Shown here: one piece after another, positions 11,104 through 49,484 of the stretch
Layout: every line of letters begins with the position of its first letter
How positions within the stretch are numbered: the stretch's first letter is position 1
Source of the DNA: an uncultured Phycisphaerales bacterium
GTDB lineage: Bacteria > Planctomycetota > Phycisphaerae > Phycisphaerales > UBA1924
Direction: 5' to 3'
Assembly (NCBI GenBank): GCA_963973795.1
Contig: CAXBAF010000007.1
Span: 27,200-91,199 of the forward strand
DNA length: 64,000 nt
The notes under the pieces: model-generated
The model's database searches: none
Told to the model about the DNA's origin: nothing
The model's input: only the letters and a program-made list of their open reading frames with translations
Program-made: the position numbers and the translations under genes

Positions 11104-11231
11104 CGCGTCCGGATTGGATCAGGTAGTATCGTTGCGTTGGCGGGGCGGTACGGCGCGGCCGTGCGGTGTCCTTGCCTTGCTGTTTCGTATCATCGCGCCG
11201 CGTCTGGCGGCTGATTCGAGGGGAACGGAAG

Positions 11232-16986: not shown

Positions 16987-17210
16987 GGCTGGTTTCCCTC
17001 CGGGCGGGTCCGTGTACTGAACCGTCGGATCCGTATCGGCGGCGTGAGGCCGAGCTTTGAGATTGCGGGGGAGATGCGAGGCCGGGTAGTCGGTTTGTCG
17101 GGGTGGGGTCGGCAAACGCCGCGTGATCGGACGGCGGCAACGGCATCGGGGTCGTGGTCTGCGCGGTTTCCGGACGGTCTGTATGATGCGCCGAGCATGA
17201 GATCGGGCGT

Positions 17211-19593: not shown

Positions 19594-19612
19594 ATCGGCG
19601 GTTCGGTGTCTC

Positions 19613-20356: not shown

Positions 20357-20419
20357 CGACCGGTGCGATCTCGCCGCCGCCGCTGAGGGCCGCGGGGTGA
20401 TCGCCGGAGGCGGAGTCTG

Positions 20420-23400
20420 ATGCAAGCATTGATCTCAAAGTTCATGGCGCTCCCGATCCCCGGCAAGGCCGTGATCGGAATGGTCATGGCGGGCGGCATC
20501 TTCGGTGTCTGCCATCTTCTCGGGATGAACGAGCTTGGGTACTTCCTCGGGATCGCGATGGCGGTCGTGACGGTGGTGCTTGCGCTCTTCGGTCTCGTGA
20601 TGGAGAAACGCGACAAGAAGAAGGCCGAGAACGTCGAGGCGAACATCGCGGACAGCGCCGCGGCGACGCCGTCGGGTGTCAGCAAGGTTGCGGACCGTGC
20701 GAAGCTCGACGATCTGCGTCGTCAGTTCGAGTCTGGAGTCCAGACTTTCCGTGACTACGGCAAGAACCTCTATGACATGCCCTGGTATGTCGTGGTGGGC
20801 GAGCCGGGATCGGGCAAGACCGAGGCGATCCGTCACAGCGGCATCGGCTTCCCGCCGGGGCTCCAGGACCAGCTCCAGGGCACGGGCGGCACCGTCAACA
20901 TGAACTGGTGGTTCACCGATCAGTCGGTGATCATCGACACGGCGGGCCGTCTGATGTTCGAGGACGTTGCACCCGGGGATAACAACGAGTGGAAGGAGTT
21001 CCTGAAACTCCTGCGGACGAGCCGGCCGAACTGCCCGATCAACGGGATGCTGCTGGTGATCCCTGCCGACACGCTGATTACTGATAAGCCGGACGAGATC
21101 GAGAAGAAGGCGGGCAAGATCGCCCAGCAGTTCGACCAGATCCAGCGTTCTCTTGGTGTGCGTTTCCCGGTGTTTGTGCTGATCACGAAGGCCGACCTCG
21201 TCAACGGGTTCCGCGAGTTCTTCGATGACATCACCGATCCGCGGTTGACGGCGCAGATGCTCGGGTGGTCGAACCCGGCGGACCTCGATGAGCCGTTCAA
21301 GCCTGATCGTGTAGAGGAGCACCTCGACAGCCTGCGGCAGCACCTGCTTCAGCGTCGGTTCGCGATGCTGCAGGACCCGATCCATAGCGAGGATCCGAAG
21401 GGACGTCGGATCGACCAGGTCGATGCGCTCTACAAGTTTCCCGAGGCGGTGACTGAGCTTGGCCCGCGGCTTCGGCGGTATCTCGAGATGATTTTCGTCG
21501 CCGGCGAATGGAGCCAGAAGCCTCTGTTCCTGCGCGGGATCTACTTCACGAGCTCGATGCGGGAAGGCGATGCGCTGGATGCGGATCTGGCGGAGGTTCT
21601 CGGCGTCGGGGTTTCGTCGCTGGCGGAGGGCAAGCTTTGGGAGCGGGAGCGGAGCTACTTCCTTCGGGACCTGTTCCTCGACAAGGTTTTCAAGGAGCGT
21701 GGGCTCGTCACGCGTGCGGCGAACGCGGGGCAGGTGAAGCGCAAGCGGGCCATGCTGATCTCGGGGGCGGCGGCGGTGGCTTCGCTTCTGCTCGGTGCGA
21801 TGATTTGGTACAGCTACTCGCAGACCAAGGCGCAGATCCAGAATCCTCGTGATTTCTGGGTCGAGGTGCGGGGCGCGGTCGAGGAGGTGGCGAGCACGGC
21901 GGAGGGGAACGATGATCTGTCGCAGGCCGAGGCGTTGCGGCAGTATCTCAGCCCGCTGACCGTTCGGTACTCCGATGCGAGTGTCCGGGATCTGATTATC
22001 GCGCAGCCGTTGGAGAGCGAGGACGCGGCGGTCCGCTTGGGCGGGGTGAAGCTGACGTACCTTGAGGTTTTTGAGCGGGCGAGAAAATACTACGAGGAGA
22101 ACAGTTCTTCGAGTGGTCTGTTCGCGCTGATCGCGGCGCTCCCCGGCGGCGGCAACGATATTTTCAAACGCCAGTTGCCGGCTCAGCGGGGACTGTTCGA
22201 GCAGCTCGTACTCGTCCGCGCCATCGAACTGGCGCGCGGAGACATCATCGACGGCGGCGCGAATCGCTCAACGCCGATCGGCTGGGGTGATGGTGCGCTG
22301 GGATCGAAGGCGCTCGCCGCGATGATCGCGCTCGAGGCCGATGGGACGATGGGGAACGGCGAGCCGCTCCCCGCGGAAACGATCGACGAGCTCGTGCGAT
22401 TCGCGGTGGCGGCGGAGGGTCCGGACGCCGTCGATGCCGACGCGATGACTCGGCTTCGGGAGTACGCCTCTTGGTTGTATTCAGGGGACTCTTCGTGGCC
22501 GCCGGAGACGCTCCCGGTTGGCACTGAATCCGCGAACGCAGCGGTGGAACGCGGTATCGAGGCGTTCAATCGGTTCTGGCGTAATCCATCCGGTGAAGGC
22601 ACGCTGTTTGGTGCGTTGAAGACACTCGAGGCCGCGGGCGGTTCGCTCACCGCTGCGGAAGAAACCCTGGCGGGTGCGTCGCGTGAGTTGGGTGCGGCGG
22701 CGACTGAGGCCGCGTTCGATGAGAAGAAGGGAGCCTGGCTATCTGCCTACGACCGGTATCGCGCGTCGTATGACGCGTTCTCGACCGCACTGGGCGAGAT
22801 CCCGGAGCAGTACGTGCGGAGCGATTTCGGCTCGGCGGCGTTGCCTGAGGAGGCTCGGCTCGCGGTGTGGGACAGCGCGAGCTCGGCGTACGACGAACTC
22901 ATCGGGCGATTCGGTGACGAGACCCGGCGCGAGAAGCTCGATCCGGAGAATGAGCGTGAGGCCTGGTTGATCGATCAGCGTGAGGCCTTGGTCGCGGCGC
23001 GGAACACCGCGGAGAATGCGTACCGGTCGACGGCTGAGCAGCTCGTTGGCTCGATCCGGGACCGGATCCTGCCTCGGCATCTCGCGCAGCGGGGTCTGGA
23101 CAGGGTCTTTACTGTTCGTTCCAACCTCTTCGCCCAGGCGCACGGGGCGCTGACCCAGGAACGAGTGAGGACAGGGGATTCGCTGCGGGCGGAGCTCGAT
23201 TCGATCAAGTCAGCGCCGGATTCGCAGGTCGTGCCTGCCACAGGCGAGGATCTGGCGTCTGCGGCCCAGTCGGCACGGCTGGTGCACGAGGCTGCGGCAA
23301 GGTCAGCTCGGTATGCGGCGATGCGTGACGACCTTGAAAGGTTGCGCGATTGGGAACAACTGCTGACACGGGAGTCGGCCGATCCGTTACCGATGATTCC

Positions 23401-24829
23401 GTTTACGGGGTTGTCGTCGCTCGAATACGAGCGTCGTTTCGCTCCCGAGAACAACAAACTTGTGCTTGGTTCATTCACCGAACTCAGGGCAGCGATCGAT
23501 CGTCCGGGTGAGGACGGGTCGGCGTATGTGCTGGACGCGGAGAGCCTGAGAACCTCGCTCAAGTCGATCGAGCGAGGACTCGAATCGCACCTCGACGAGT
23601 ACGAACGGTTCTGGACCGAGGACGTCCCGGCGGCGATCCAGGTTCAGCCGGGCCCCTCGGTGACCTGGCGTGATCTGCTCAATGAGCTCCCCAACTCCCG
23701 TCGGATCTTCGACGCGTTCGAGACGCTTCGTGAGATCATGGGCGAAGCATTGGGGGACCCCGCCACGGCGACAAACAATCGGGTCGCCGATCTCGCGAAG
23801 GCGGTCGCCGAGGAAGAAGACGACGATGATCTCCGAGGGATGATCCGGACCGATGTCGTCGCGAGATGGCGTCGGCTGTCCGACGACGCCGCGAGAGCCG
23901 GCGAGTCGCTTCGGCTCTCGGCGGAACAGAAGGAGGTTATGGACGCCTACTTCCCGCTCGAGCAAACGGCGGCGTTCAAGGACCCCTGGGAGCTCGGGCC
24001 TGAAGAAACGTATTGGCGGAGCTTCACGCTCGCGGCGATCGAGCGGATCGCTCGTGAATCGGCGGATGACAAGGAAGGGGCGATCGTCGCGGTCGAGCCC
24101 CTCTGCAGGCGGTTCCCGATCACCCTGAACGCGGACCCGGCAAACGGCCTCGATACCGAGGAGATCCGCCGGGTCGCGAGCACGCTCGGCGGGGTGGGGG
24201 TGCTCGCATCGAGCACGCCGATCACGGCTGTCGCGAGCCCGTTCGATTGGATCAGCAGCGACGAGATCCGTCAGGCCCTTGACAGGATCAGCGGTCGGAG
24301 CCTGCTGCAGGATGCGCCGCGCGTCGGCCGGTTGCGTCGGGCTCTGGGCACGGCGGAGTTCCTCTCCAAGAACGCGGGGAACCTGACGTTCACCCTCGCG
24401 GCGCAGGGGGCGAATTATCCGAAGAACGTCGAGCAGGGAACGCACACGATCTGTGAGCAGGTCGATGTGGCTGGGAAGCCGAACGTTCTCGGCGAGCCTG
24501 GTTTTACGCTGTTTGAATCCCGCGAGGTGTTCTGGGACAACTACTACTGGTCGCTGCCGATGGGCGACCGGATCGAGTTCCGGTTCCAGAATGCGAACCG
24601 CGACGCGCCGGTGACCGCGACGCTCGGGCGTTGGGCGGCGCTCTCGTCGCTCGCGAGCGTTGGCGGGGCGGTCGAGTTCAACGATGGGACCCGGCGGGCG
24701 CAGGTCTGGCCGATCGAGTTCAGGCTCAGCAATGGCCGGTCGTTCTGGATGGGGGCTGTGTTCAGCGGGGGGGACGCCGACGCGTTGTCGGAGATGCGGA
24801 ATTCGTGGCTCACGAAAGAAGAGTGGTGA
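20420..24829 (+). CDS. tssM: T6SS membrane complex protein TssM (IcmF family), 1469 aa
   Basis: Two N-terminal TM helices and a third at AMLISGAAAVASLLLGAMIWYSY. Walker A motif VVVGEPGSGKTEAI and IIDTAGR are present, followed by a long periplasmic C-terminal region. Confidence 0.9.
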   Translation: MQALISKFMALPIPGKAVIGMVMAGGIFGVCHLLGMNELGYFLGIAMAVVTVVLALFGLVMEKRDKKKAENVEANIADSAAATPSGVSKVADRAKLDDLRRQFESGVQTFRDYGKNLYDMPWYVVVGEPGSGKTEAIRHSGIGFPPGLQDQLQGTGGTVNMNWWFTDQSVIIDTAGRLMFEDVAPGDNNEWKEFLKLLRTSRPNCPINGMLLVIPADTLITDKPDEIEKKAGKIAQQFDQIQRSLGVRFPVFVLITKADLVNGFREFFDDITDPRLTAQMLGWSNPADLDEPFKPDRVEEHLDSLRQHLLQRRFAMLQDPIHSEDPKGRRIDQVDALYKFPEAVTELGPRLRRYLEMIFVAGEWSQKPLFLRGIYFTSSMREGDALDADLAEVLGVGVSSLAEGKLWERERSYFLRDLFLDKVFKERGLVTRAANAGQVKRKRAMLISGAAAVASLLLGAMIWYSYSQTKAQIQNPRDFWVEVRGAVEEVASTAEGNDDLSQAEALRQYLSPLTVRYSDASVRDLIIAQPLESEDAAVRLGGVKLTYLEVFERARKYYEENSSSSGLFALIAALPGGGNDIFKRQLPAQRGLFEQLVLVRAIELARGDIIDGGANRSTPIGWGDGALGSKALAAMIALEADGTMGNGEPLPAETIDELVRFAVAAEGPDAVDADAMTRLREYASWLYSGDSSWPPETLPVGTESANAAVERGIEAFNRFWRNPSGEGTLFGALKTLEAAGGSLTAAEETLAGASRELGAAATEAAFDEKKGAWLSAYDRYRASYDAFSTALGEIPEQYVRSDFGSAALPEEARLAVWDSASSAYDELIGRFGDETRREKLDPENEREAWLIDQREALVAARNTAENAYRSTAEQLVGSIRDRILPRHLAQRGLDRVFTVRSNLFAQAHGALTQERVRTGDSLRAELDSIKSAPDSQVVPATGEDLASAAQSARLVHEAAARSARYAAMRDDLERLRDWEQLLTRESADPLPMIPFTGLSSLEYERRFAPENNKLVLGSFTELRAAIDRPGEDGSAYVLDAESLRTSLKSIERGLESHLDEYERFWTEDVPAAIQVQPGPSVTWRDLLNELPNSRRIFDAFETLREIMGEALGDPATATNNRVADLAKAVAEEEDDDDLRGMIRTDVVARWRRLSDDAARAGESLRLSAEQKEVMDAYFPLEQTAAFKDPWELGPEETYWRSFTLAAIERIARESADDKEGAIVAVEPLCRRFPITLNADPANGLDTEEIRRVASTLGGVGVLASSTPITAVASPFDWISSDEIRQALDRISGRSLLQDAPRVGRLRRALGTAEFLSKNAGNLTFTLAAQGANYPKNVEQGTHTICEQVDVAGKPNVLGEPGFTLFESREVFWDNYYWSLPMGDRIEFRFQNANRDAPVTATLGRWAALSSLASVGGAVEFNDGTRRAQVWPIEFRLSNGRSFWMGAVFSGGDADALSEMRNSWLTKEEW

Positions 24830-24882: not shown

Positions 24883-27800
24883 ATGCCGAAATCCGAATCG
24901 CATCAGGTGTCGGCGTCCCAGCGCGTTTGGCTCGCGGTGCTCGGGAAGCACCCGGGCTGGAACGATCACCTCGACGACATCGGTCTCGACACCGAGCGGC
25001 TGGTCGCCGTCAAGCGGCATCTCTATGTCGAGGGTGTCGGCGGGGCGATCAACGCGGGGACGTGGGAGGCGTTGAGCGAGCAGGAGCGTGACGAAGGGTT
25101 CTCGCACACCTTCTTCTGGCGCCAAGCGGACGGCATGGTCATCGGGCGGATGTGGTCGTCGAGCGACGGCAAGGGGCGATCGAAGTACCCGATGATCGCG
25201 TGCGCGATGTGCAGGTCGCTCCCGTTTTCGTTCGTCGCGGGCCCGCTGCTTGAGCGGCTGCGCAGGCTCGAAGCGGTCTGCCGAGAGGTGACGACCGCGT
25301 CGGATGTGATCGGCGCGGTCGATCGGGTAAAGGCTGAGGTTGCCGAACTCGCCTCCTTCGCGCCGGAACTGAGCGACGCCCCGGTCGTGGGTGGTGAATC
25401 CGGGAAGGGCTCCGCCGCGGAATTGATCGAGAGCGGCCGGCTCGGCGAGGAAGGAGTCGGTCTTAAGCGTGTGCTGTATCAAATGGACCGCGAGATGGGC
25501 GCCTACGTCCGCCCCGAGGGAAGCGGGACCGCAAGCCGATCAAGATCGGTTGAGGTCCGCGGGCAGCACATCCGTGTCCCGACGTCGTCGGGGCCGATCT
25601 CGCCCGGGCAGGAACACCGGGATCTGAGCCTTTGGGCCCGTCTCCTGCTCAACAAGATCGATCCGTTGGTTCCGATCTTCCTTGCGACCAAGGACGGACG
25701 CGATTGGGTCGACATCATCGTCGGGGAGTTAGGGCCCACGCCGCTCGCGTGCCTGCAGTCTTCGCCCGAGGCGATGCCGTATGTCTCTGACATTCCCTTT
25801 ACGATCGATGGCGATATCGAGCAGTCGATCGAGCAGACCATCGAGGCGTCGCGTGCCGGGACAGTCGTCGAGCGAGATCCGTGTTTCGTTGACGTTCCGC
25901 AGGAACGGCTTGCACCGTTCCTGCGTCCACGCCGGGCAGAGACAAGCGCTGCGGAAACCGATCGGAAGCCGCTCTTTCTCGGGATCGGGGCGGCCGCGAT
26001 CGTCGTGGTGGTTGTTCTCGCTTTCCTGCTGATGCGGGGTGGCGGTGACGGCGTGGATCAACCAGAGACCCGCGAGCAGAGCCGCGCAGAGCCTGCGGAA
26101 AATCCTGCTGCCACCGAGATCAGCGACGGGCAGACACGTGCGGATCCGGTCAATCCGGCTGCGACTCGGGAGACTCCGCCGGGATCGGCTGTTGCAACGG
26201 ATGATCAGGCCACCGAGCCTGCTCCTGCTGATAGCCCGATAGATCGTCCGACCGAGGTGATCGCGTCCGATCCCGTGGGTCGGCTGGAGGCATTCGAGCG
26301 CTGGTGTGCTCGGTACGAGGTCTGGTATCTGCCGTTCACCGAAGCGATTGAGGACGGGGCAATCGCCGGCGACCCTGTGTTCGCAAAGGAGTTGAAGGCG
26401 GCGATCGCCTCCGCGAAGCGCGAGGGCGACCGGCTCGATCCGCTGATCAATACTCCCGGGCGATATCGGAGCCTCGACTCTCTGAGAGAGTCTCCACCCG
26501 ATGCGATCTACGAGCCCGGCTTCGGTGAGACGATCGCCGCGGGGCTCGGCCCGATCGAAACGATCCGGTCGGTGATGCATTCGAGCCGCTGGGAATCGAG
26601 GGAAGCCCTCTCTCGAATGGCGACGCTCACGGAGTCGTTCGGTGGGGTGATGCCGGATGACCTGTCGGCGTTGTCGTTGAGGCTCGATTCGGATGATGGA
26701 GCGGAAGCCGCGGGCGCGGTTCTCGGCCTTGCGGCGGTGTCTGGCAGCCTTGGTGCGAGCGTCTCCGCGATGGACCAACTGATCACGGTCCGAGGTGAAC
26801 TCGAATCGATCCCGGACAACTCTGTTGCGAGGGCGTTCGATCGGCTCAGCCCGATCGGGGAAGAAAGTTCTGGCAACACATGGCTCGCCGAGGCCCGGCG
26901 CAGGTCACTCGAACTCGTCGCGTTTGGCGAGGAATTGCTCGAAGCCGCGGAGTCTAACTATCCACGCGTGGATCCGGAGCTCTTTGCGGGGCGGATCGCG
27001 GCTTTGCCTGAAGCGACCGATTCGGCGACCGCGTTGGCGTACCTCCGGGGCTGGATCGAGACGACCCGGGACCGGTCGCTCTACCTGCTGGCTCCCGCGG
27101 ACGATCCCCGACGCGGGTTGTCTGAGCCGGAACGCGTCGCGGCGTTGCGGGAGGGATTGCAGAATCTGGCGGTGTCGGACGATAACGCCGAGACCCGCGA
27201 GCTCACGGGCCTTCTCGACGCGTACGACGAAGCCGCGAGCGAGTTGCGCGACCTTTCGTGGAACGAGGCGACCAAGGCCCGCGTCACCGAGGAAACAGTG
27301 GCGCTCACCGCGCTGCTGGATGGGATTGCGGACCGCATCGACGCGGAATCACGCAGCCGAGCGATCGAAGCAGAACGATACATCGCGACGCTGAACGCGA
27401 CGGGGACCGTCACGAATTCGGGATCTGACGCGATCGATCGCGCGTGGATCACAGCACGCGACGCCGCGGTCGATCGGTTTGAATCTGATGGTGATGTCGT
27501 CGCACTCTCAAGGGCGATCGACACCACGAAGGAAAGCCTCGCGTCGTTTGAATCGGCGATGCCGAGACCTGAGTTCGACGACGGTGCGTTGGGAACACTC
27601 TCGGCGATGTTTGTCTCGACGGCGGATGAAGAACGCGAACGGGTTCTTTCCGACTTGACCACAGCGGCTGATGCGGCGTCGGACGACGACGCCCTCGCTT
27701 TGTACAACGAGTGGCGTGAGAGAATCGTCGAGTCTTCTGGCTCGTTGGTGTCGCTGCGCGATGGTTTGGACACCTGGGACGATCGCGAGGCTCGCGAGGC

Positions 27801-29478
27801 GGCGGAGCAGTGGGGCGGCTCCTGGGCGGCCGCAAACATGGAATGGCGAGCAGAAGCGCCGGAACTTGGTCGGTATATCGAAGCGCTCGGCTCGCCGAAC
27901 CCTGTCCGTCTCGGGGAGATCGCGCAGTCGCCCGACTCCCAGCCGGGGATCGCGTTTGTGGCGTGGAGCCGCCTCGACGAGGCCGACCCGGAATGGGGCA
28001 CGTCGATCGAGCAACTCGAACTGGATCGGGTCGTGACGGGGCGTCTCGCGGAGTCTGTCGCAGCTCTCCCCGAAGCGAGGGCGGCGGAGGTGACTTCGAG
28101 CATGTCTCGATCGGCGACGGCGCGGTGGCTCCGAGGTGCATCTTCGTGCGACGCTGCACAGTTTTCGAGGATCGCAGCGATCGGTGGTGATCTTCCGCTC
28201 GCGGAAGACCAACTCCCGGCTGGCGTCCGATTCAACCTGTTTGTCGAAGGGCTCCGGCGCTCGCTGGGTCGGGGCGAACCGCTCGACCGGGAAGAACTCG
28301 TCGCTCAGGCAGAATCGGCGCGTGCTGGCCTCGATGAAGGCGGTGGAGCGAGCGCCTGGCTGGCGTCGTTCGTTGATGAGCTTACGGCCCGAGAGGGGCG
28401 TGAGGTTGACTACCGCGTCATCGGCCCGGCGAGAGCGGGGTGGGCTGTTGAGCCGTTCGATTCGGGGCGTGTGCTCCGATATTCATGGACCGGCGCGAAC
28501 CAACCCCGTGAACTGACATTCCGGCTCGTTGAATCGCCGGAGGCCGGCGTGTTTTATCTGGCGGAGACCGAGGCTCCGGCGTGGTTGATGATCGATTTCG
28601 TGCTCAATGGCGAGTACGCCGAGGCCGTGGCATCGAGCCTCCCCGAAGATTGGGACCCGATCCCCGACACCCGGCTCGGGCCGAGAGTCTGGGATTGGGG
28701 GCGGCAGCGAGGCGGCCGCGGGATCCGACTGGCCCGCACCTGGGTGATGAAGGATCGAGGGTCGGACCGGCCGTATTACGCGGACGGGTTCGAGGATCGT
28801 GTCGGCCGACCCGGTGATGACCACCCGATCCAACGAGTTTCAGCTCGGGCGGCGGCGAGCATCGCGGCAGCGGCCGGCTGCCGCTTGCCGACGCAGGCGG
28901 AATGGCGTGCCGCCTTCGGCACGATCGGGAGTCCTCCGCCGAGTGCGGATTGGAATCTCCGCGACCGGACATTCGACGAGCAGCGCTCGCACACGCTCTC
29001 GCTCGGCGCGGGGCTCGCGGTGACGTGGCCCGACCAGCAGTCGTTCGTCGATGGCATGGACGGGATCGGGCAGGGGCCGGACGCGGAGAGCCACGAATGG
29101 TCGGATGGCGTGCTGTGGTTCACCGAGGTCGCGGCGGGTCGTGAGCGTCCGTTCCGCCACCTTCTCGGGAACGTCGCGGAGTATGTGCTGCCGGAAACGA
29201 ACGACGCGGCATGGCTGTCGGATCGGGGCGGCGACGTGGGAAGCCGCGTTCGTGCGCTCGGTGCGGTCTCGCGGGTGCTTCCGGTCATCGGTGGTTCGTC
29301 GCTCTCGCCGCCGGGCGTTGGCGTTGATCGGGCGGTCGTCCCGGCGACCGACACCGGCGTGCTCGGCTACTCAGATGTCGGCTTCCGGCTCGCGTTTTCG
29401 CCAGGGGTTGAAGCGCCGCTGGTGGTTGTGGTCGGGGAGCTTCTGGGCGATGCGCCGTTCTTGCGCATGGCTGATTAG
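24883..29478 (+). CDS. tagF: TagF (DUF2094) domain fused to a TM helix, a giant ectodomain and a C-terminal FGE-sulfatase-fold domain (1531 aa)
   Basis: The N-terminus reads VWLAVLGKHPGWNDHL and IGRMWSSSDGKGRSKYPMIACA, matching the TagF patterns GKLPsrGDFv and pS.D.vGR.yPl. The TM helix PLFLGIGAAAIVVVVVLAFLLM lies at nt about 25969-26034 and is followed by a Pro/Thr/Ala-rich linker. The C-terminus (nt about 28507-29410) reads LTFRLV...GCRLPTQAEWRAAFG...WNLRD...FRHLLGNVAEYV...GYSDVGFRLA. Confidence 0.8.
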   Translation: MPKSESHQVSASQRVWLAVLGKHPGWNDHLDDIGLDTERLVAVKRHLYVEGVGGAINAGTWEALSEQERDEGFSHTFFWRQADGMVIGRMWSSSDGKGRSKYPMIACAMCRSLPFSFVAGPLLERLRRLEAVCREVTTASDVIGAVDRVKAEVAELASFAPELSDAPVVGGESGKGSAAELIESGRLGEEGVGLKRVLYQMDREMGAYVRPEGSGTASRSRSVEVRGQHIRVPTSSGPISPGQEHRDLSLWARLLLNKIDPLVPIFLATKDGRDWVDIIVGELGPTPLACLQSSPEAMPYVSDIPFTIDGDIEQSIEQTIEASRAGTVVERDPCFVDVPQERLAPFLRPRRAETSAAETDRKPLFLGIGAAAIVVVVVLAFLLMRGGGDGVDQPETREQSRAEPAENPAATEISDGQTRADPVNPAATRETPPGSAVATDDQATEPAPADSPIDRPTEVIASDPVGRLEAFERWCARYEVWYLPFTEAIEDGAIAGDPVFAKELKAAIASAKREGDRLDPLINTPGRYRSLDSLRESPPDAIYEPGFGETIAAGLGPIETIRSVMHSSRWESREALSRMATLTESFGGVMPDDLSALSLRLDSDDGAEAAGAVLGLAAVSGSLGASVSAMDQLITVRGELESIPDNSVARAFDRLSPIGEESSGNTWLAEARRRSLELVAFGEELLEAAESNYPRVDPELFAGRIAALPEATDSATALAYLRGWIETTRDRSLYLLAPADDPRRGLSEPERVAALREGLQNLAVSDDNAETRELTGLLDAYDEAASELRDLSWNEATKARVTEETVALTALLDGIADRIDAESRSRAIEAERYIATLNATGTVTNSGSDAIDRAWITARDAAVDRFESDGDVVALSRAIDTTKESLASFESAMPRPEFDDGALGTLSAMFVSTADEERERVLSDLTTAADAASDDDALALYNEWRERIVESSGSLVSLRDGLDTWDDREAREAAEQWGGSWAAANMEWRAEAPELGRYIEALGSPNPVRLGEIAQSPDSQPGIAFVAWSRLDEADPEWGTSIEQLELDRVVTGRLAESVAALPEARAAEVTSSMSRSATARWLRGASSCDAAQFSRIAAIGGDLPLAEDQLPAGVRFNLFVEGLRRSLGRGEPLDREELVAQAESARAGLDEGGGASAWLASFVDELTAREGREVDYRVIGPARAGWAVEPFDSGRVLRYSWTGANQPRELTFRLVESPEAGVFYLAETEAPAWLMIDFVLNGEYAEAVASSLPEDWDPIPDTRLGPRVWDWGRQRGGRGIRLARTWVMKDRGSDRPYYADGFEDRVGRPGDDHPIQRVSARAAASIAAAAGCRLPTQAEWRAAFGTIGSPPPSADWNLRDRTFDEQRSHTLSLGAGLAVTWPDQQSFVDGMDGIGQGPDAESHEWSDGVLWFTEVAAGRERPFRHLLGNVAEYVLPETNDAAWLSDRGGDVGSRVRALGAVSRVLPVIGGSSLSPPGVGVDRAVVPATDTGVLGYSDVGFRLAFSPGVEAPLVVVVGELLGDAPFLRMAD

Positions 29479-29567
29479 GTTGCTTTGTGTGCGGCTGTGA
29501 CGGCCGGTGCGGGTAGTTTGTGCTAACATATGCGTGGGTGATTTTCCACCACGAGCGGGGTTTTGTC

Positions 29568-32252
29568 ATGGGAAGAATCATGCAGCGGAGCGTGCGGGCG
29601 ATTGTGCTCGCCTCTGGGGCAGCGGGCGGTCTTGCTTCGACCGGCGCCTGTGCGTTTGCGGTCTCCGGCGGCGTGTTCGCCGGCGTGGGCGTCGCGGCTG
29701 AGGTCGCGGTGGAAGGCACAGAGTTTGTGGTTGGCGCGGTGGAGGTTGTCTACGCGCCCGGGACCTCGGGCGGGATCGCCCCGTCGGAGCTTGCCGGGGT
29801 GGACGTTGAGCTCGTCCGCCAATCGAGCGGGCTCCTGATTGCCCCGGGGAGCGGGGCCGGCACGCCCGTCACGATCTCACTCGGGAACCTGAGCAACGCG
29901 CGCACGGAGCGTTTCGATTCGAGCGGTCTGCGCTCGGTGCTCGAGGCGATTCACGAGCGGTACACGACGCGGACCGGGGGCAAGGCGTACGTCGTTCCCG
30001 ACGCGACGCAGGTGCTGCTCCGCGGCATTGGTGAGGATTATCGAACCGGGTCGAGTGGCCTTCGGTTCGTCGTCTACCCCAGCCGGGGCACGAATGAACG
30101 CCCGACTCGCGCGACGCCGGCGCCTTCCACGGCCGCGAGTTCGCAGCCTGCAACAACGCCCGAACCTCGGCCGCGTCCTGCGGCGCAGCCTCAACAGGTG
30201 ACACCCGCACCGGCGGCATCGGTTCAGCGTCCGGCCGAGCAGCCGGCAGGTTCGGCCTCGACTCCAGCGCCGACTCAGTCCGAAGCGCCGGCGATCGTCG
30301 AGACAACTGATCCCGATGACGGAGGCCGCGAGCCGCCGGCTCGGATGGACCGGTCAACAACGGTGCGTGTTGTCCCGCAGGATGGGACGGTTTATGACCC
30401 CGACGACCTTCCGGTCGAGCAATTTGAGTTCGATGCGGAGATCGACGGTGAGTCGCCCTTCGAGATGACGGGCTTCGAGTTTTCGTTCCCCAAGCCGCAC
30501 CCCGACCTGCCGGCACCCGAGGCGCTCGGTGATGTCACGGTCCGGCTGATCCGGACGCCGAGCGGCTTTGTCGCGCGCGAGGGCCAGGGCAAGCTTGTCC
30601 GCTTGGGCGACCTGGGCGTTGGCGGTTCCGATCGGCTGTACTTCTCCGCCTTCGAGGCGTCGCTGGCTGCGGTGCTCCAATCGTTCCGCGACGATTCGAT
30701 CGTCGGTGTGCTTGTCACCCCCGATCCCGACAAGGGGATCGGTCCTGACGAGGTCGAGCGGTATTACGACGAGCGTTCGGAATACGGCGTTACGACGCTC
30801 CCGATTCTTGTCTATGTCCCGCAGGTCACCCGGCTGAAGACAATCGCGTCGGGCGATCGGATCGACACCGAAGACCGGCTGAACAGCCCGAAGCACGCGA
30901 GGATCACGCGGGGGTCGCCCCTGCAGCCGGGCGAGGGCGAGATGCCTAACGCGCTGCTGCGGTTCGAGCCCCTGAACACGTACGCGTTCCAGCAGAGCCG
31001 GCACCCCGGCCGGCGCGTGGATGTCGCGATCGCTGATGGCAGCGTGCCGGGCGAGCCCGAGACGCAGGGCGACGCGGAGGTGCAGTACCTCGTGCAGGAG
31101 ATCAAGCCCTGGACGATCTACGCCCAGTTCTCGAACACGGGCACGGAGCAGACCGATCAGTTCCGCGAGCGTGTCGGCTTCGTCAACAACCAACTTCTCG
31201 GCTTCGACGACATCTTCTCGATCGACTACATCACCAGCAATCTCCGCGAGAGTCACGCGATCGTCACTTCATACGACGTGCCCCTTTCGGATGATGGCCG
31301 ACTCCGGGCGAAGGTCGAGGGCGAGTGGTCGGAGTACAAGGCCTCGGATGTCGGCGTCGCGAATGAGAGCTTCGAGGGCCGGACATACGGATTTGGCGGC
31401 GAGCTTCGGTACAACTTCCTGCAGGTCAACGATTTCTTCGTCGATGTTTACGGCGGGGGCAAGTACCGCGATATCGAGGTCGAGAACCTGGGGCTTGTCA
31501 ACGGACGTGGTCAGGAAGAAGTCTTCGTCTTCGACGTCGGACTGAGAGCCGAGCGGGTGCGAGCGAACTATTCGATCTTCGCGGAGGTCGGGCTTGAGAT
31601 CTCGGCGAACGGGATCACGGGTGCGAACGAGGCGGATCTTGAGCGGCTCGGCCGCCTGAACCCCGACGAGGAGTGGACGGCGCTCCATTGGGACGTTGAT
31701 CACAGCTTCTACCTCGACGGTATCGGTTCATGGAACTCCGGGAACCGTCAGTTGGTCCACGAGATCGCGTCGCGATTCAGCGGGCAATACGCGTTTAACA
31801 ACCGCCTCATCCCCAACTATCAGACGGTGGGCGGCGGTCTCTACACGGTCCGCGGGTATCGCGAATCGCTGGTCGCGGGTGATAACGGCGTCTTTGCAAG
31901 CGTCGAGTACCGCTTCCATCTCCCCAAGGCGCTGCCCGCGGGCGATCAGAGCGTTTCGGTGTTCGGCGAGTCGTATCGCGTGCGGACCGACAGCGAAGGT
32001 CTTGCACCCGATTGGGACTTCATTCTCAAGGCTTTCTTCGATGTCGGGTATGTGAACAACAGCCGGGCGCTCGGGTTCGAGAGCGACGAGTCGCTGATGG
32101 GCACCGGGTTGGGTGCCGAGCTGCGTCTGGCGGGGAATCTGAGTTTTCGGACCGACTGGGGCATCGTATTGGACGAGATTGGTTCCGATACCCCCTCCCC
32201 GACGACGGTTGGATCGCAGCGTTGGCACTTTGTCTTCACGCTGCTCTACTGA
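29568..32252 (+). CDS. Two-partner-secretion outer-membrane transporter (TpsB; ShlB/FhaC/HecB family) with an extended N-terminal region
   Basis: ATG 29568 gives MGRIMQRSVRAIVLASGAAGGLASTGACAFA (signal peptide). The C-terminal barrel carries QTVGGGLYTVRGYRESLVAGDNGVFASVEYRF and a terminal aromatic (FVFTLLY). It lies immediately upstream of a TPS-domain gene. Confidence 0.85.
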   Translation: MGRIMQRSVRAIVLASGAAGGLASTGACAFAVSGGVFAGVGVAAEVAVEGTEFVVGAVEVVYAPGTSGGIAPSELAGVDVELVRQSSGLLIAPGSGAGTPVTISLGNLSNARTERFDSSGLRSVLEAIHERYTTRTGGKAYVVPDATQVLLRGIGEDYRTGSSGLRFVVYPSRGTNERPTRATPAPSTAASSQPATTPEPRPRPAAQPQQVTPAPAASVQRPAEQPAGSASTPAPTQSEAPAIVETTDPDDGGREPPARMDRSTTVRVVPQDGTVYDPDDLPVEQFEFDAEIDGESPFEMTGFEFSFPKPHPDLPAPEALGDVTVRLIRTPSGFVAREGQGKLVRLGDLGVGGSDRLYFSAFEASLAAVLQSFRDDSIVGVLVTPDPDKGIGPDEVERYYDERSEYGVTTLPILVYVPQVTRLKTIASGDRIDTEDRLNSPKHARITRGSPLQPGEGEMPNALLRFEPLNTYAFQQSRHPGRRVDVAIADGSVPGEPETQGDAEVQYLVQEIKPWTIYAQFSNTGTEQTDQFRERVGFVNNQLLGFDDIFSIDYITSNLRESHAIVTSYDVPLSDDGRLRAKVEGEWSEYKASDVGVANESFEGRTYGFGGELRYNFLQVNDFFVDVYGGGKYRDIEVENLGLVNGRGQEEVFVFDVGLRAERVRANYSIFAEVGLEISANGITGANEADLERLGRLNPDEEWTALHWDVDHSFYLDGIGSWNSGNRQLVHEIASRFSGQYAFNNRLIPNYQTVGGGLYTVRGYRESLVAGDNGVFASVEYRFHLPKALPAGDQSVSVFGESYRVRTDSEGLAPDWDFILKAFFDVGYVNNSRALGFESDESLMGTGLGAELRLAGNLSFRTDWGIVLDEIGSDTPSPTTVGSQRWHFVFTLLY

Positions 32253-32350
32253 GTTGCTTGTTTCTGTTGTAGACTGGACTTACGAGCGCCCCGGGAAGGG
32301 AATCGCTCCTTTGCTTCGCGTCAACACCGATAAGAATTGAGGGCCTCGAG

Positions 32351-35300
32351 ATGTCGCAACGTCAGACCAAGAGCCGTATGCAGAATCGCCGTGATCGTTC
32401 GCGCACGAGCGGGCTGATCACCGCGGGTGTGATCGCGGGCGTGGTGAGCGTCCCGGCGCTGGCGGGTCCCAGTGGCGAGCAGGTCGTCCACGGGTCGGCC
32501 CGATTCGACCGCGCCGGCAACCACACGACGATCACGACGAGCGATCGCGCGATCATCAACTATGACTCGTTCAACCTGAACCAGTACGAATCCGTCCGGT
32601 TCATGCAGCCCGGTGCGTCGTCGCGGGTTCTGAACCGGATCCAGGGCGCGGCCCCGACGTTGATCGACGGTTCGGTATTCGCCAACGGTAATGTCTACTT
32701 CGTGAACCGGGCGGGTGTCTTCTTCGGGCAGAACGCCGTGATCAACGTGGGCGGGATCTACGCCGCCGCGGGCAACATCACCAACCAGGACTTCCTGAAC
32801 AATGTCAACCAGTTCACCGACCTGTCGGGATCGGTGATCAACGAGGGCACAATCAACGCGACCAGCGAGGCCCACCTGGTTGGTCGTCGGGTCGCGAACT
32901 TTGGACGGATCGTCGCGCCGAACGGCATGGTTTCGATGACCGCCGGGAACGACGTCCTGCTCGGCCAGCGCGGGGGGAGGGTCTTCGCGCGGATCAGTGG
33001 CGACGCGTCGAACGCGGGCGCGGTCGGCGTCGAGAACCACGGTGTCATCGACGCCGGCTCGGGCCAGGTACTCGCGGGTGTGGGTGATCACTTCGCGCTG
33101 GCGCTTTACGACACCTCGGTGATCCGGGGCGATTCGGTCCGCATCGCGGGCTCGGCCCGCAGCACGGTGACGGTGCGCGGCGACATCGACGCCAGCAACG
33201 CGACCGGCAGCGGTGGTGATATCGAGATCCTCGGCGGGCGGATCGGTGTCTACGGCGCCGATCTGGACGCGAGCGGCACGACCGGTGGCGGCAATATCAA
33301 TATCGGCGGCGATGAGCGCGGGCTCGGCGAACGGCTCCGCGCCGAGGTGACGCTTGTGGACAGCGGGACCTCGCTGTCGGTCGATGCGACCTCGAGCGGT
33401 GACGCCGGGCGTGTCGTCGCGTGGTCCGACGGCGCAACAGTGTTCCGCGGAAAGGTCAGCGGCAACGCGCCGGGCAAGGGCGGCTTCACCGAGGTGTCGT
33501 CGCTGGGCTATCTGGAATTCAACGGCTCGATCGATCTTCGGGGCGCCGCCCAGAACGGCACGCTTCTGCTCGATCCCAAGAACATCATCGTGACCGCGAC
33601 GAATCAGGGCGGCGCGACGGATATCAACGACGTCAACAGCTTCGCCGTCGACCCGAACGCGACCACACTCATCCATGACCAGGTCCTCGAAGGCTGGCTC
33701 AACGGCGGCATCCTCGCGGACATCGTCTTCCAGGCGAACAACGACTTTATCTTCAACCCGTTCGCGTCTGTGACACAGAACGCCGGAACCAACTCACTCC
33801 GCATCTTCGCGGGTCGTCGAGTCGTGTTCGGCCCGAACTCGAATCTGATCATGGGCGGCGGCAGTCTGTTCGCGGTCGCGAACGCGGTGAATGAAGCCGG
33901 TTTCGTCGCGGCGAGCCGCGACGCGGGTCTCGGCTCGATCATCCTCGCGAACGGCTCGAACATCGAGATCCAGGGTGCGGGCCAGGTCGCGGACTTCACC
34001 GTCGATACCGGTGCGATGTCCGGTTCCATCGTCATGGTGGGGGAGCTGCTTTCGCCGACGATCAACCTCACCACGATCGACGCCACGAGCCAAGTGCTCT
34101 TCGTCGAAGACGGCAACGGGCTCACCGACCAGATCGGGCTCGGGGGCAGCGTCATCGTGAACGCGGGCGGTCAGGTCCTGTTCACCGGCAACGCGGGCGA
34201 GTGGTCGTTCGGTGCGCTGGATGTCACATCGCCTGAGATCCTCTTTGATAATGCCGCGACGGGCGTCGCGGCGACGGCCGGCTCGCTCCGGTTCGCCTCG
34301 CCTGTGTTCAACTCGGCGACCAACGGTCTGTTCACCTTCAACGGCCCGGCTGCCATCGAGGGGACCTACACGTCGGCCGGCGCGGCGCTCTTCACGGGCA
34401 CGCTGGACCTTGAGGGCGGGATCGATAGCAACGGCGACCTGACTTTCCAGGACGCGGTGACCCTGACGGGCGACGCGGTCATCAATCAGCTCTCGGCGGG
34501 CAATATTGAGTTCGCGAGCACCCTCGGCGCAACGAACGCGCTCATGGATGACCTGACCGTCAACCTCAACGGCAACGGCGACCTCTCGTTCCGCGGGCAG
34601 ATCGGGACCTTCGCGTCCCAACTCGGAGATATCCGGGTAACCGGCCTCAACGACACGCTCACGTTTGATGACTTTGTCTTCGCCGATTCGCTGACCTCCT
34701 CGGGTATCGGCGGCACGGTCAACCTCGGCAACGGCGATGACCAGTTCACGCTGCAGGGCAACAACGGGGCGGGCGCGGCGCTCGCGATCACTGGCGCCGA
34801 TGTCAATCTGGGCGGCAACGTGCTCGCGGTGGCGAGCGGTGTCTCCATCGAGCAACTGCTCACCGTCGCCGGCGATTTCTCGATCGGTGCGCTCAACCCA
34901 GCCGGGACGATCTCGCTGGGGTCGGTGCTTCTCGATGCCTCGGGCGGCAACGCGAACCTGACGCTCAACACGTTCGGCGGGGCGGACATCTTCGTCGCCG
35001 ACGGCGCGGGCGAGACCATCCGGCGCGACGCGAGCGGCGCGAACAGCGCCGATCTGAACATCAACTCGTCAGGCGGCGACGTGACCCTCGGCAATGTTCT
35101 CGCGAACGGGGCCGCGGATAACTTCCTGAATCTCCTTGAGATCCAGGCGGGCGCAGGCGAGGTGAACTATGCGGGCACCCGCTACGCGGCCGAGACGCTG
35201 ACGCTCAACGCCGCCGCCCACAACCTCGCCGACGCGGACAGCGTCTTCGGGGACGACGCGGCGTCGACCGCCGTCACCCAGGACATCTCCTTCCTGGGCG

Positions 35301-49398: not shown

Positions 49399-49484
49399 AT
49401 TGCGTCGCCCGGGATGATCCCGAGCGGCACCGGATGAGATTATTGGGAAGGGGACGCCGGCGCGTCCCGTCGGAGGATTCGACG

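What the first reader, a model, noticed from the sequence alone, without database searches (positions are those of the whole stretch)
24883..29478. TagF, normally a soluble cytoplasmic T6SS repressor, is fused to a TM helix and a ~1150-aa extracytoplasmic module
The first ~330 aa carry TagF/DUF2094 signatures (LGKHPGWNDHL and SSSDGKGRSKYPMIACA). They are followed by one strong TM helix (nt 25969-26034), a Pro/Thr/Ala-rich linker, a long helical region and a C-terminal FGE-sulfatase-fold domain. The known TagF architectures I am aware of are stand-alone proteins (Pseudomonas) or TagF-PppA fusions (Agrobacterium), both cytoplasmic. A membrane-tethered TagF with a periplasmic sensor-like domain implies that the post-translational brake on firing is itself controlled from outside the cytoplasm. 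I do not recall this design having been described.
Basis: partly seen in the sequence, partly recalled or inferred. Interest (0 to 1): 0.85.

Follow-up and report, generated by a model that had tools for sequence, protein, structure and literature searches.

The report
Membrane-anchored TagF with periplasmic FGE-like domain
In a marine planctomycete type VI secretion gene cluster, the usually soluble firing brake TagF is fused to a membrane anchor and a large extracytoplasmic module of the kind that activates firing in Pseudomonas; dozens of related species share this design, which I found described in none of the papers I could search.

Summary
ORF 24883-29478 (+) is one uninterrupted 1531-aa gene directly downstream of tssK-tssL-tssM.

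**N-terminus (about 345 aa).** It fails the Pfam and NCBIfam TagF models, but three other tests identify it as a divergent TagF:
- The AlphaFold model (pLDDT 89) has A. baylyi TagF as its only significant PDB match (E 1.5e-7), followed by P. aeruginosa TagF.
- Seven of the eight experimentally critical TagF loop residues are kept, with canonical spacing.
- tssM lies immediately upstream in 64 of 67 related loci.

**Rest of the protein.**
- One strong TM helix (aa 364-382, N-in).
- An acidic Pro/Thr/Ala linker.
- About 700 aa of helices.
- A C-terminal FGE-sulfatase-fold domain (family profile vs human FGE, E 1.8e-9) that lacks the catalytic cysteines.

**Not an artefact, not rare.** Four full-length homologues (38-94% identity) exist, and 42 of the 80 best reference-genome loci carry the fused form.

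**Context.**
- P. aeruginosa TagR is also an FGE-sulfatase-domain periplasmic protein.
- A. baylyi TagF needs the bitopic membrane protein TagZ.
- The same cluster encodes a paralogue with a pseudokinase head (11780-16693).

**Verdict.** This is a new variant of a known kind. The architecture is solid; the signalling mechanism is inferred.

The parts
24883..29478 (+). Whole gene: TagF-like domain, TM helix, linker, helical region, FGE-like domain (1531 aa)
   Evidence: Single ORF. Four full-length homologues at 38-94% identity, with the same neighbours where contexts were recovered. 42 of 80 reference-genome loci carry the fused form.
24883..25917 (+). Cytoplasmic TagF-like domain (aa 1-345), two-lobed like A. 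baylyi TagF
   Evidence: AF2 pLDDT 89, pTM 0.89. Foldseek top hits are 9t0n TagF (E 1.5e-7), then 6iz8 and 2qnu TagF. No Pfam or NCBIfam hit. hhalign against 6 annotated TagFs aligns motif to motif, E 0.0036, probability 9%.
24943..24969 (+). TagF alpha-loop motif G21-K22-H-P-G-W-N-D28-H29 (canonical GKxPxxGDF)
   Evidence: G21, K22, H23, P24, W26 and D28 are invariant in 44 family members. They correspond to Pa TagF G8, K9, D15, F16, which are needed for repression.
25159..25191 (+). TagF beta-loop motif S93-S-D95-G-K-G-R99-S-K-Y-P103 (canonical SxDxxGRxFP)
   Evidence: S93, D95, G96, K97, R99, Y102 and P103 are invariant. They correspond to Pa TagF S79, D81, R85, P88. Spacing from the alpha-loop is 74 residues in the window protein (71-87 across the family), against 72-73 in five of six canonical TagFs.
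25972..26028 (+). Single transmembrane helix (aa 364-382), predicted N-in / C-out
   Evidence: Mean hydropathy 3.01. There are 5 K/R in the N-flank and net -1 in the C-flank. A TM helix sits at the equivalent position in all fused relatives.
26029..26247 (+). Low-complexity acidic Pro/Thr/Ala-rich linker (aa 383-455)
   Evidence: Composition. This is the most variable and indel-rich segment among the 5 full-length homologues. AF2 pLDDT is below 50.
26248..28392 (+). Long all-helical extracytoplasmic region (aa 456-1170)
   Evidence: AF2 predicts helices at pLDDT about 70-90. No significant structural relative. Sequence similarity is detectable in only about 9 of the fused relatives.
28393..29475 (+). 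C-terminal FGE-sulfatase-fold domain without catalytic cysteines (aa 1171-1531; HMM envelope from aa 1144)
   Evidence: PF03781 at 26.8-30.1 bits. Profile A5 vs human FGE 2aft gives E 1.8e-9 over FGE residues 37-150 and 177-281. 33 of 34 relatives hit PF03781. Only one Cys in the domain (0.3% of 361 residues), visible in the sequence as C1333 in AGCRLPT; GGSxLSPP replaces the Cys-bearing FGE motif.
11780..16693 (+). Paralogous bitopic protein: kinase-like (pseudokinase) N-domain, TM (aa 300-318), helical region, same FGE-like C-terminal domain
   Evidence: The C-terminal-domain HMM scores E 2.5e-49 at aa 1237-1612, and blastp gives 29% identity over 587 aa to the target. TM helix. The family profile hits an unnamed Ser/Thr kinase (7naa), PknI, StkP, PknA and PknE at E 4e-4 to 7e-3. 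Catalytic K, D and D are replaced by E70, G177 and A199.
18229..24829 (+). tssK (18229-19593), tssL/dotU (19613-20356) and tssM (20420-24829), directly upstream
   Evidence: TIGR03353 E 4e-64, and TIGR03348 E 1e-92 over the N-terminal part only. DotU E 1.7e-26. This is the same tssK-tssL-tssM-tagF order as in six annotated proteobacterial clusters.
29520..40594 (+). Two-partner secretion pair directly downstream: TpsB/ShlB (29520-32252) and TpsA (32351-40594, 2747 aa)
   Evidence: PF03865 E 2.7e-15. PF05860 E 1.1e-18. ShlB is the next gene in 27 of 32 fused-form loci but only 6 of 19 short-form loci.

Best explanation
The gene encodes a bitopic inner-membrane T6SS accessory protein of a marine Phycisphaerales (Planctomycetota) bacterium.

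Shown:
- The cytoplasmic N-terminal 345 aa are a divergent, two-lobed TagF that keeps the two surface loops through which TagF acts in Pseudomonas, Agrobacterium and Acinetobacter.
- The gene sits where tagF sits, right after tssM.
- A single TM helix follows, then a disordered acidic linker, about 700 aa of helices, and a catalytically dead FGE-sulfatase-fold head. That head is the domain class of the periplasmic T6SS activator TagR and of the effector-binding immunity protein Tsi3.
- The whole architecture is conserved across deep planctomycete lineages.

Inferred:
- The TagF domain acts as the post-translational brake or checkpoint on T6SS assembly. The cluster has no recognisable Fha, PpkA or PppA, so it more likely acts on a core component (as A. 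baylyi TagF acts on Hcp) than on Fha.
- The TM helix does in cis what TagZ does in trans in Acinetobacter: it concentrates TagF at the membrane where assembly starts.
- The helical stalk and FGE-like head bind a periplasmic or outer-envelope ligand. Occupancy or mechanical state would be relayed through the single helix, by oligomerisation or repositioning, to engage or release the brake. Firing would then be gated from outside the cytoplasm without phosphorylation.
- The paralogous pseudokinase-TM-stalk-FGE-like protein in the same cluster is the likely partner or antagonist. It reads the same periplasmic cue through the same kind of head.
For: TagF identity:
- Fold match to 9t0n (E 1.5e-7), then 6iz8 and 2qnu, from a confident model.
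- 7 of 8 experimentally critical residues are kept and invariant.
- hhalign pairs the two loops in register.
- tssM is immediately upstream in 64 of 67 loci, the same order as annotated tagF.

Topology: one strong TM helix with positive-inside flanks.

FGE-like, non-catalytic head.

Real and conserved:
- 5 full-length proteins at 38-94% identity; neighbours recovered for three of them (the window, P0121, P0124) are the same.
- 42 of 80 reference-genome loci are fused, with the head always at the extreme C-terminus.
- Fused forms fill deep clades of the N-domain tree.

Precedents:
- TagR is periplasmic, COG1262, and an FGE-sulfatase-domain protein.
- TagZ recruits TagF to the membrane and is required for TagF function.
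- The FGE domain serves as a non-enzymatic binding scaffold in Tsi3.

No Fha, PpkA or PppA in the cluster ORFs scanned.

Paralogous pseudokinase sensor.
Against: - No Pfam or NCBIfam TagF hit, and the family profile finds no TagF in PDB sequences. hhalign probability is only 9%. Foldseek TM-scores are modest (0.45-0.48).
- No functional data exist for any planctomycete T6SS.
- In A. baylyi the periplasmic domain of TagZ was dispensable for the TagF overexpression phenotype. A periplasmic domain next to TagF therefore need not carry a signal.
- 27 of 80 relatives are soluble short forms and 8 keep only the TM helix, so the ectodomain is not essential for the family's core role.
- The FGE head could not be modelled (pLDDT below 50).
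- Direct similarity to TagR could not be tested.
- The ligand is unknown.
Confidence: 0.5

Rival explanations
1. Tether or scaffold only. The TM helix and ectodomain place the TagF-like domain at the T6SS membrane complex, or fasten the complex to peptidoglycan or the outer membrane in a system with no recognisable TssJ and a divergent TssM periplasmic part. They carry no regulatory signal.
For: TagZ's periplasmic domain is dispensable for TagF function in A. baylyi, while membrane recruitment matters. No TssJ was found, and TssM matches TIGR03348 only over its first 500 or so residues. FGE-fold domains occur in structural secretion-system lipoproteins: PorK/GldK appear as weak hits. TM-only forms exist.
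Against: A 1150-aa conserved ectodomain with an invariant-residue-rich terminal head is expensive for a tether. TM-only relatives show that a helix is enough for tethering. The same head is duplicated on a kinase-like signalling-type protein in the same cluster. Short soluble forms sit in the same position after tssM.
Confidence: 0.3
2. Effector-binding or immunity-type head. Like Tsi3, the FGE-like domain binds a T6SS or TpsA-delivered toxin in the periplasm. It serves as immunity, or as a detector of incoming attack that releases the brake (retaliation).
For: FGE-like proteins are periplasmic T6SS immunity proteins that work by protein-protein binding. The gene is followed by a TpsB/TpsA pair in 27 of 32 fused loci.
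Against: Immunity proteins are normally small, sit next to their effector and diverge fast. Here the head is conserved over deep divergence and fused to regulator-type cytoplasmic domains. No effector gene was identified next to it.
Confidence: 0.08
3. The N-domain is a generic longin/DENN-like module unrelated in function to TagF, and the protein is a T6SS-independent envelope receptor that happens to lie in the cluster.
For: The family HMMs fail. FLCN/FNIP and C9orf72/SMCR8 appear just below TagF in the fold search.
Against: The top hits are all TagF and the only significant one is TagF. The TagF-specific loop residues are invariant. Position after tssM holds in 64 of 67 loci across all architecture classes.
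Confidence: 0.05
4. Artefact: two genes joined by a frameshift or misassembly near 25.9-26.1 kb.
For: The closest short relative with context (P0002, 395 aa) ends just after the TM helix.
Against: Five independent assemblies (ENA, TARA, Logan, JGI and the window) keep one frame through the junction at 38-94% identity. About 40 species-level genomes also have the fused ORF.
Confidence: 0.01

Closest known systems
TagF of Acinetobacter baylyi (ACIAD2683, PDB 9T0N) with its membrane partner TagZ
   Same: Best structural match to the N-domain, of similar size (324 aa vs about 345 aa) and also two-lobed. The T6SS context lacks Fha, PpkA and PppA. TagF function depends on being brought to the inner membrane by a single-pass protein with a variable periplasmic domain.
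   Different: Here tethering is covalent: TagF, then the TM helix, then the ectodomain, in one chain. TagZ has the opposite layout (a 26-aa cytoplasmic peptide that docks in a TagF groove) and a small unrelated periplasmic domain. Sequence identity to 9T0N is 13%. No TagZ, TagN, TagX, TslA or TsmK set was identified here.
TagF of Pseudomonas aeruginosa H1-T6SS (PA0076; PDB 2QNU, 6IZ8) and TagF-PppA of Agrobacterium tumefaciens
   Same: Same fold core. The same functionally critical loop residues, 7 of 8. The same gene position after tssM.
   Different: Those proteins are soluble and cytoplasmic, bind Fha, and work beside a PpkA/PppA phosphorylation relay. This protein is membrane-anchored, fails the DUF2094 HMM, and its cluster has no recognisable FHA, kinase-active or PP2C protein.
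TagR (PA0071) of the P. aeruginosa TagQRST-PpkA pathway
   Same: An FGE-sulfatase-domain (COG1262) protein located outside the cytoplasm that controls post-translational T6SS activation.
   Different: TagR is a free periplasmic protein acting on the kinase PpkA (activating arm). Here the domain is the distal end of a 1150-aa ectodomain covalently linked to the repressing arm (TagF), and a second copy is linked to a pseudokinase. Direct sequence relatedness to TagR beyond the shared Pfam family was not tested.
Tsi3 FGE-like T6SS immunity proteins (A. baumannii)
   Same: A non-enzymatic FGE domain used as a binding scaffold in a T6SS context.
   Different: Tsi3 is a stand-alone immunity protein paired with the effector Tse3. 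There is no evidence of an effector-immunity pairing here.
Hanks-type receptor kinases with C-terminal FGE-sulfatase sensor domains, and PpkA
   Same: The cluster paralogue (11780-16693) has a kinase-like domain, a TM helix and an extracytoplasmic FGE-like domain. This is the layout of a receptor Ser/Thr kinase and is positionally analogous to PpkA.
   Different: The window copy lacks the catalytic Lys and both Asp residues, and no FHA substrate or PP2C phosphatase was found. Any signalling would be phosphorylation-independent.

Membership tests
TagF (Pfam PF09867/DUF2094; NCBIfam TagF model) | Significant match to the curated family HMM | tested here: not met
   No TagF hit on the full-length protein or on the isolated N-domain, even at E<=10. 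None of the 120 listed homologues carries a Pfam label.
TagF (Pfam PF09867/DUF2094; NCBIfam TagF model) | TagF three-dimensional fold | tested here: met
   AF2 model at pLDDT 89. Foldseek against the PDB gives 9t0n TagF at E 1.5e-7 (probability 1.00), then 6iz8 and 2qnu TagF. No other hit has E<=1e-3.
TagF (Pfam PF09867/DUF2094; NCBIfam TagF model) | Conserved alpha- and beta-loop residues needed for repression (Pa G8, K9, D15, F16, S79, D81, R85, P88) | tested here: met
   The equivalents are G21, K22, D28, (H29), S93, D95, R99, P103. Seven of eight are kept and invariant in 44 sequences. Loop spacing is 74 vs 72-73 residues.
TagF (Pfam PF09867/DUF2094; NCBIfam TagF model) | Encoded in a T6SS cluster, typically directly after tssM | tested here: met
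   The window order is tssK-tssL-tssM-X. tssM is immediately upstream in 64 of 67 family loci. Six annotated clusters show the same order.
TagF (Pfam PF09867/DUF2094; NCBIfam TagF model) | Soluble cytoplasmic protein | tested here: not met
   Strong TM helix at aa 364-382 followed by 1149 further residues.
TagF (Pfam PF09867/DUF2094; NCBIfam TagF model) | Represses or checkpoints T6SS assembly by binding Fha or Hcp | not testable with these tools
   Needs genetics or biochemistry. No FHA protein was found in the cluster. Hcp is present at 44355-44855.
FGE-sulfatase domain family (PF03781) | HMM match above the gathering threshold covering the fold | tested here: met
   The single sequence scores 26.8-30.1 bits against a cutoff of 23.3, but only over profile positions 87-136. 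Family profile A5 vs human FGE gives E 1.8e-9 over FGE residues 37-150 and 177-281 of 286. 33 of 34 relatives hit PF03781.
Formylglycine-generating enzyme (catalytically active FGE) | Active-site cysteine pair (human C336/C341; residue numbers from my own knowledge) | tested here: not met
   Only one Cys in aa 1171-1531 (0.3% of 361 residues), and it lies elsewhere: C1333 in AGCRLPT, read from the sequence. The aligned segment reads GGSxLSPP, with an invariant Ser where FGE has the first Cys.
TagR-type periplasmic T6SS regulator | FGE-sulfatase/COG1262 domain located outside the cytoplasm | tested here: met
   Domain identity. The extracytoplasmic location is a prediction from one TM helix and the charge bias.
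TagR-type periplasmic T6SS regulator | Closer sequence relationship to PA0071 than to other FGE-domain proteins | not tested
   No PA0071 sequence was available in the accessible collections.
TagR-type periplasmic T6SS regulator | Works with TagQ/S/T and an active PpkA kinase, Fha and PppA | tested here: not met
   No Pfam FHA, Pkinase, PP2C or ABC-transporter hit in the cluster ORFs scanned. The only kinase-like protein lacks its catalytic residues.
TagZ (bitopic TagF recruiter) | Short cytoplasmic N-terminus with the SLRIL**KKK motif, one TM helix, and a variable periplasmic domain, encoded as a separate protein | tested here: not met
   Here the cytoplasmic part is TagF itself, fused N-terminal to the TM helix. 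This is a functional analogy only.

The most novel reading that the evidence does not exclude
Planctomycete T6SSs are gated by a phosphorylation-independent trans-envelope switch built from two paralogous bitopic receptors. One carries the TagF brake and the other a pseudokinase in the cytoplasm. Both carry the same helical stalk plus TagR-class FGE-like head in the periplasm. The two heads read one envelope or contact cue, possibly generated by the co-encoded TpsA adhesin or toxin or by an incoming attack. Their cytoplasmic domains act antagonistically on assembly. This would merge the two separate regulatory arms known from Pseudomonas (TagQRST-PpkA and TagF) into one receptor pair.
Probability: 0.2. 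Interest if true: 0.85.

Novelty: new variant of a known kind. Interest (0 to 1): 0.66.

Why it matters
- TagF is the most widespread post-translational T6SS inhibitor, but what relieves it is a long-standing open question. In Pseudomonas the signal for the TagF-dependent, phosphorylation-independent route is unknown.
- A lineage in which TagF is physically wired to an extracytoplasmic ligand-binding head points to where that input comes from. It offers a natural system in which brake and sensor are one molecule.
- It shows that the current TagF family models miss a whole phylum-level branch: 379 species-level genomes carry this family.
- It links three separately discovered facts into one architecture: TagR is FGE-like, TagZ brings TagF to the membrane, and FGE domains serve as binding scaffolds.
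- It also exposes a large unannotated family of pseudokinase-FGE-like receptors encoded in T6SS clusters.

Tried and rejected
- Pfam and NCBIfam on the whole protein and on the isolated N-domain at E<=10 gave no TagF.
- Family profile A1 against PDB sequences gave nothing. Fold comparison was needed.
- hhalign of A1 against six annotated TagFs gave the right register but only 9% probability. I treat it as supportive, not decisive.
- The word-indexed protein search misled at first. It listed almost only 320-aa short forms for the N-domain and missed a 94%-identical long homologue. It found only 4 homologues for the ectodomain. This suggested a near-unique fusion, which the reference-genome scan overturned.
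- AF2 of the 1081-aa ectodomain from a 5-sequence alignment modelled the helical part but not the FGE head. Foldseek on that model gave only generic alpha-solenoid/TPR noise at E>0.1, so nothing is claimed for the stalk.
- The kinase-like idea for ORF 11780-16693 failed with the single sequence. It gained modest support only from a 31-sequence profile.
- I looked for a separately encoded ectodomain next to short-form genes. None lay within the 8-kb flanks, apart from the upstream pseudokinase paralogue in 5 loci.
- The primary TagR paper (PMC3402362) is not held. TagR's domain class is cited.
- Frameshift or misassembly is rejected.
Full report

Yes. Window 24883..29478 (+) is one uninterrupted 1531-aa ORF. 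Third-position GC is coding-like in all folded parts: 0.80, 0.73 and 0.77. It drops to 0.61 in the low-complexity linker.

As a pair they occur once in the six-frame translation of the window.
- A Kyte-Doolittle scan finds one strong TM helix at aa 364-382 (nt 25972-26028, mean 3.01). There are five K/R in the 20 residues before it and a net-negative flank after it, which means N-in/C-out.
- The following 70 residues are A/P/T/D/E-rich and lack aromatics.
- AlphaFold2 predicts almost exclusively helices for about aa 464-1170, at pLDDT 70-90.
- The C-terminus hits PF03781 FGE-sulfatase above the gathering score, though only over a 48-residue core.

**2. Gene context**

The window carries a T6SS cluster:

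| Gene | Coordinates |
|---|---|
| tssK | 18229-19593 |
| tssL/dotU | 19613-20356 |
| tssM | 20420-24829 |
| the target | 24883-29478 |
| TpsB/ShlB | 29520-32252 |
| TpsA (2747 aa) | 32351-40594 |
| tssA | 40696-41925 |
| tssB | 42121-42636 |
| tssC | 42633-44126 |
| hcp | 44355-44855 |
| tagJ | 45093-45932 |
| tssE | 45820-46431 |
| tssF | 46469-48376 |
| tssG | 48340-49398 |
| clpV | 48996-52280 |

No FHA, active kinase, PP2C, TssJ, VgrG or PAAR domain was detected in the ORFs scanned. Six annotated proteobacterial clusters show the order tssK-tssL-tssM-tagF, so the target occupies the tagF slot.

**3. Is the N-terminus TagF?**

The curated HMMs say no. There is no Pfam or NCBIfam TagF hit even at E<=10 on the isolated domain. 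A 44-sequence family profile finds nothing in PDB sequences. Three independent lines say yes.

1. *Fold.* A confident AF2 model (pLDDT 89, pTM 0.89) has A. baylyi TagF 9T0N as its only significant PDB match (E 1.5e-7, probability 1.00). P. aeruginosa TagF 6IZ8 and 2QNU follow, and only then longin/DENN-type proteins.
2. *Functional residues.* Lin et al. 2018 showed that P. aeruginosa TagF residues G8, K9, D15, F16, S79, D81, R85 and P88 form the functional loops. The equivalents here are G21, K22, D28, H29, S93, D95, R99 and P103. Seven of eight are kept and are invariant in the family. The inter-loop spacing is the same: 74 residues here against 72-73 in five of six canonical TagFs. hhalign pairs the loops in register, although at low probability (E 0.0036, probability 9%).
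3. *Synteny.* tssM lies immediately upstream of the family gene in 64 of 67 loci with enough flank, whatever the architecture.

I conclude that this is a divergent TagF branch that current models miss. None of the 120 listed homologues carries a Pfam label.

**4. Artefact or real fusion?**

It is real. Four full-length homologues (1498-1547 aa; 94, 59, 52 and 38% identity) from ENA, TARA, Logan and JGI assemblies keep one frame through TagF, TM, linker, stalk and head. The two whose contexts were fetched (P0121, P0124) show the same neighbours.

The word-indexed protein search under-reports long proteins badly. A pattern scan of one genome per GTDB species found 379 genomes with the family. 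The 80 best loci break down as follows:

| Class | Loci |
|---|---|
| Fused: 1050-1920 aa, TM at about residue 340-370, FGE-like domain at the extreme C-terminus | 42 by ORF-level HMM (39 in the motif-anchored count of 77 loci) |
| Short soluble (about 312-360 aa, no TM in most) | 27 |
| Short plus a TM helix only | 8 |
| Long, but no head detected (two run off their contig) | 3 |

In a rough NJ tree of the N-domains, fused forms fill several deep clades. TM-only forms (for example L018, the closest short relative) are nested among them, which suggests secondary loss of the ectodomain.

Hosts are overwhelmingly Phycisphaerae and other Planctomycetota MAGs. The nearest are marine Phycisphaerales (L012 at 70%; P0121 at 94%, found in an ENA assembly and a TARA Oceans scaffold).

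**5. The ectodomain**

- The head (aa about 1144-1531) is an FGE-sulfatase fold. A 34-sequence profile matches human FGE at E 1.8e-9 over FGE residues 37-150 and 177-281 of 286. It also matches bacterial FGEs, EgtB/OvsA and, weakly, PorK/GldK. 33 of 34 members hit PF03781.
- The head cannot be a formylglycine-generating enzyme. The domain contains a single Cys, in the AGCRLPT motif. The segment aligned to the Cys-bearing active-site motif reads GGSxLSPP.
- The 700-aa helical region has no significant structural relative. It diverges faster than either end.

**6. A paralogue in the same cluster**

ORF 11780-16693 (1637 aa) has the same layout.

- It has a cytoplasmic domain of about 300 aa, a TM helix (aa 300-318), a long acidic helical region, and the same FGE-like head. 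The head scores E 2.5e-49 against the head HMM, and the protein is 29% identical to the target over 587 aa.
- Its N-domain defines a large family: 610 representatives in a 1.84-billion-protein library, mostly 1400-1900 aa.
- The family profile hits bacterial Hanks-type kinases in register (an unnamed kinase 7naa, PknI, StkP, PknA, PknE; E 4e-4 to 7e-3), and it hits FGE at the other end.
- The window copy has lost the beta3 Lys (E70), the HRD Asp (G177) and the DFG Asp (A199), so it is a predicted pseudokinase.

The cluster therefore encodes two bitopic proteins with paralogous periplasmic modules. One is headed by TagF and the other by a kinase-like domain.

**7. What is known**

- TagF is described as a soluble inhibitor that sequesters Fha/TagH in Pseudomonas and Agrobacterium.
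- A 2025 preprint (Engelin et al.) solved A. baylyi TagF. It found that 22% of 741 TagF contexts lack Fha, PpkA and PppA. It showed that TagF binds Hcp and acts as a spike-loading checkpoint. [quoted passage not shown] TagZ's periplasmic domain was dispensable for the overexpression phenotype.
- TagR, the periplasmic activator of the TagQRST-PpkA pathway, is a COG1262 / FGE-sulfatase-domain protein.
- FGE-like proteins also act as non-enzymatic T6SS immunity proteins.
- I found no paper describing a membrane-anchored TagF, a TagF-FGE fusion, or T6SS regulation in Phycisphaerae. The library lacks most subscription-journal papers, so this is absence in what I could search.

**8. Most likely mechanism**

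*Shown:* the domain identities, the predicted topology, the conservation and the synteny.

*Inferred:*
- The TagF domain brakes or checkpoints assembly at the inner face of the membrane. Given the Fha-less context and the best fold match, it probably acts on a core component, as in A. baylyi.
- The TM helix replaces TagZ-type recruitment in cis.
- The stalk and FGE-like head bind an envelope ligand and modulate the brake.
- The pseudokinase paralogue reads the same kind of cue and acts as partner or antagonist.
- A TpsB gene is the next gene far more often in fused loci (27 of 32) than in short-form loci (6 of 19). This hints at a functional link. It may also simply reflect shared ancestry.

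The main rival is that the ectodomain is only a tether or structural anchor. The ectodomain is large and strongly conserved at its tip, the same head is duplicated on a signalling-type protein, and TM-only relatives show a helix is enough for tethering. For these reasons I favour sensing, but nothing here demonstrates it.

**9. Verdict**

TagF identity holds by fold, residues and synteny, though not by HMM. The fusion is real and I found no description of it. It is common in Planctomycetota and is best seen as a cis version of the TagF-TagZ arrangement, carrying a TagR-class head.
- Novelty: a new variant of a known kind.
- Interest: 0.66.

Noticed in passing
window 11780-16693 (+): A 1637-aa protein with a kinase-like N-domain that lacks the catalytic Lys and both Asp (predicted pseudokinase), a TM helix at aa 300-318, a long acidic helical region, and the same FGE-like C-terminal domain as the target. 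Its N-domain family has 610 representatives in a 1.84-billion-protein library, mostly 1400-1900 aa. Pfam gives no hit on the window copy.
   Followed up: partly
window 29520-40594 (+): A two-partner secretion pair (TpsB/ShlB 910 aa and TpsA 2747 aa) lies inside the T6SS cluster, between the TagF-like gene and tssA. The same arrangement occurs in L001, L009 and L010. ShlB is the next gene in 27 of 32 fused-form loci, against 6 of 19 short-form loci.
   Followed up: partly
window 20420-24829 (+): TssM (1469 aa) matches the TssM model TIGR03348 only over its first 500 or so residues. The periplasmic two-thirds are unrecognisable. No TssJ, VgrG, PAAR or FHA protein was detected in the window ORFs scanned.
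   Followed up: no
window 9076-11103, 11166-11759, 16702-17115 (-), 17211-18176: Four cluster-adjacent ORFs with coding-like GC3 have no family hit: 675 aa, 197 aa (lipoprotein-like N-terminus), 137 aa and 321 aa. A 306-308-aa gene sits at the position of the 321-aa ORF, just upstream of tssK, in L009 and L010; I did not compare the sequences.
   Followed up: no
L018 1-1218; L028 2-355; L029 1-327; L030 3-512; L087 2-394: In five related loci, an ORF about 7 kb upstream of the TagF-like gene ends in the same FGE-like domain. It sits at the position of the pseudokinase paralogue, so that paralogue also accompanies TM-only TagF forms that have lost their own ectodomain.
   Followed up: partly
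L003 12390-13901; L004 12425-13792: The annotated proteobacterial TagFs of Paraburkholderia (503 aa) and Rhizobium etli (455 aa) have C-terminal extensions of roughly 250 aa. These extensions align with each other but are absent from the 160-240-aa TagFs. I suspect a degenerate PP2C-like domain, as in Agrobacterium TagF-PppA, but did not test this.
   Followed up: no
window 1-64000: GC skew is strongly positive (+0.10 to +0.28) over the first 30 kb or so. It falls to about zero or slightly negative after about 34 kb, so cumulative skew peaks near 32-34 kb inside the TpsA gene, although genes stay on the + strand.
   Followed up: no
tool behaviour (vs 36, 39): The word-indexed protein search omitted a 94%-identical 1527-aa homologue from the N-domain hit list and found only 4 ectodomain homologues. 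A genome pattern scan revealed about 40 species with the fused form. Architecture frequencies taken from that index alone would have been badly misleading.
   Followed up: yes
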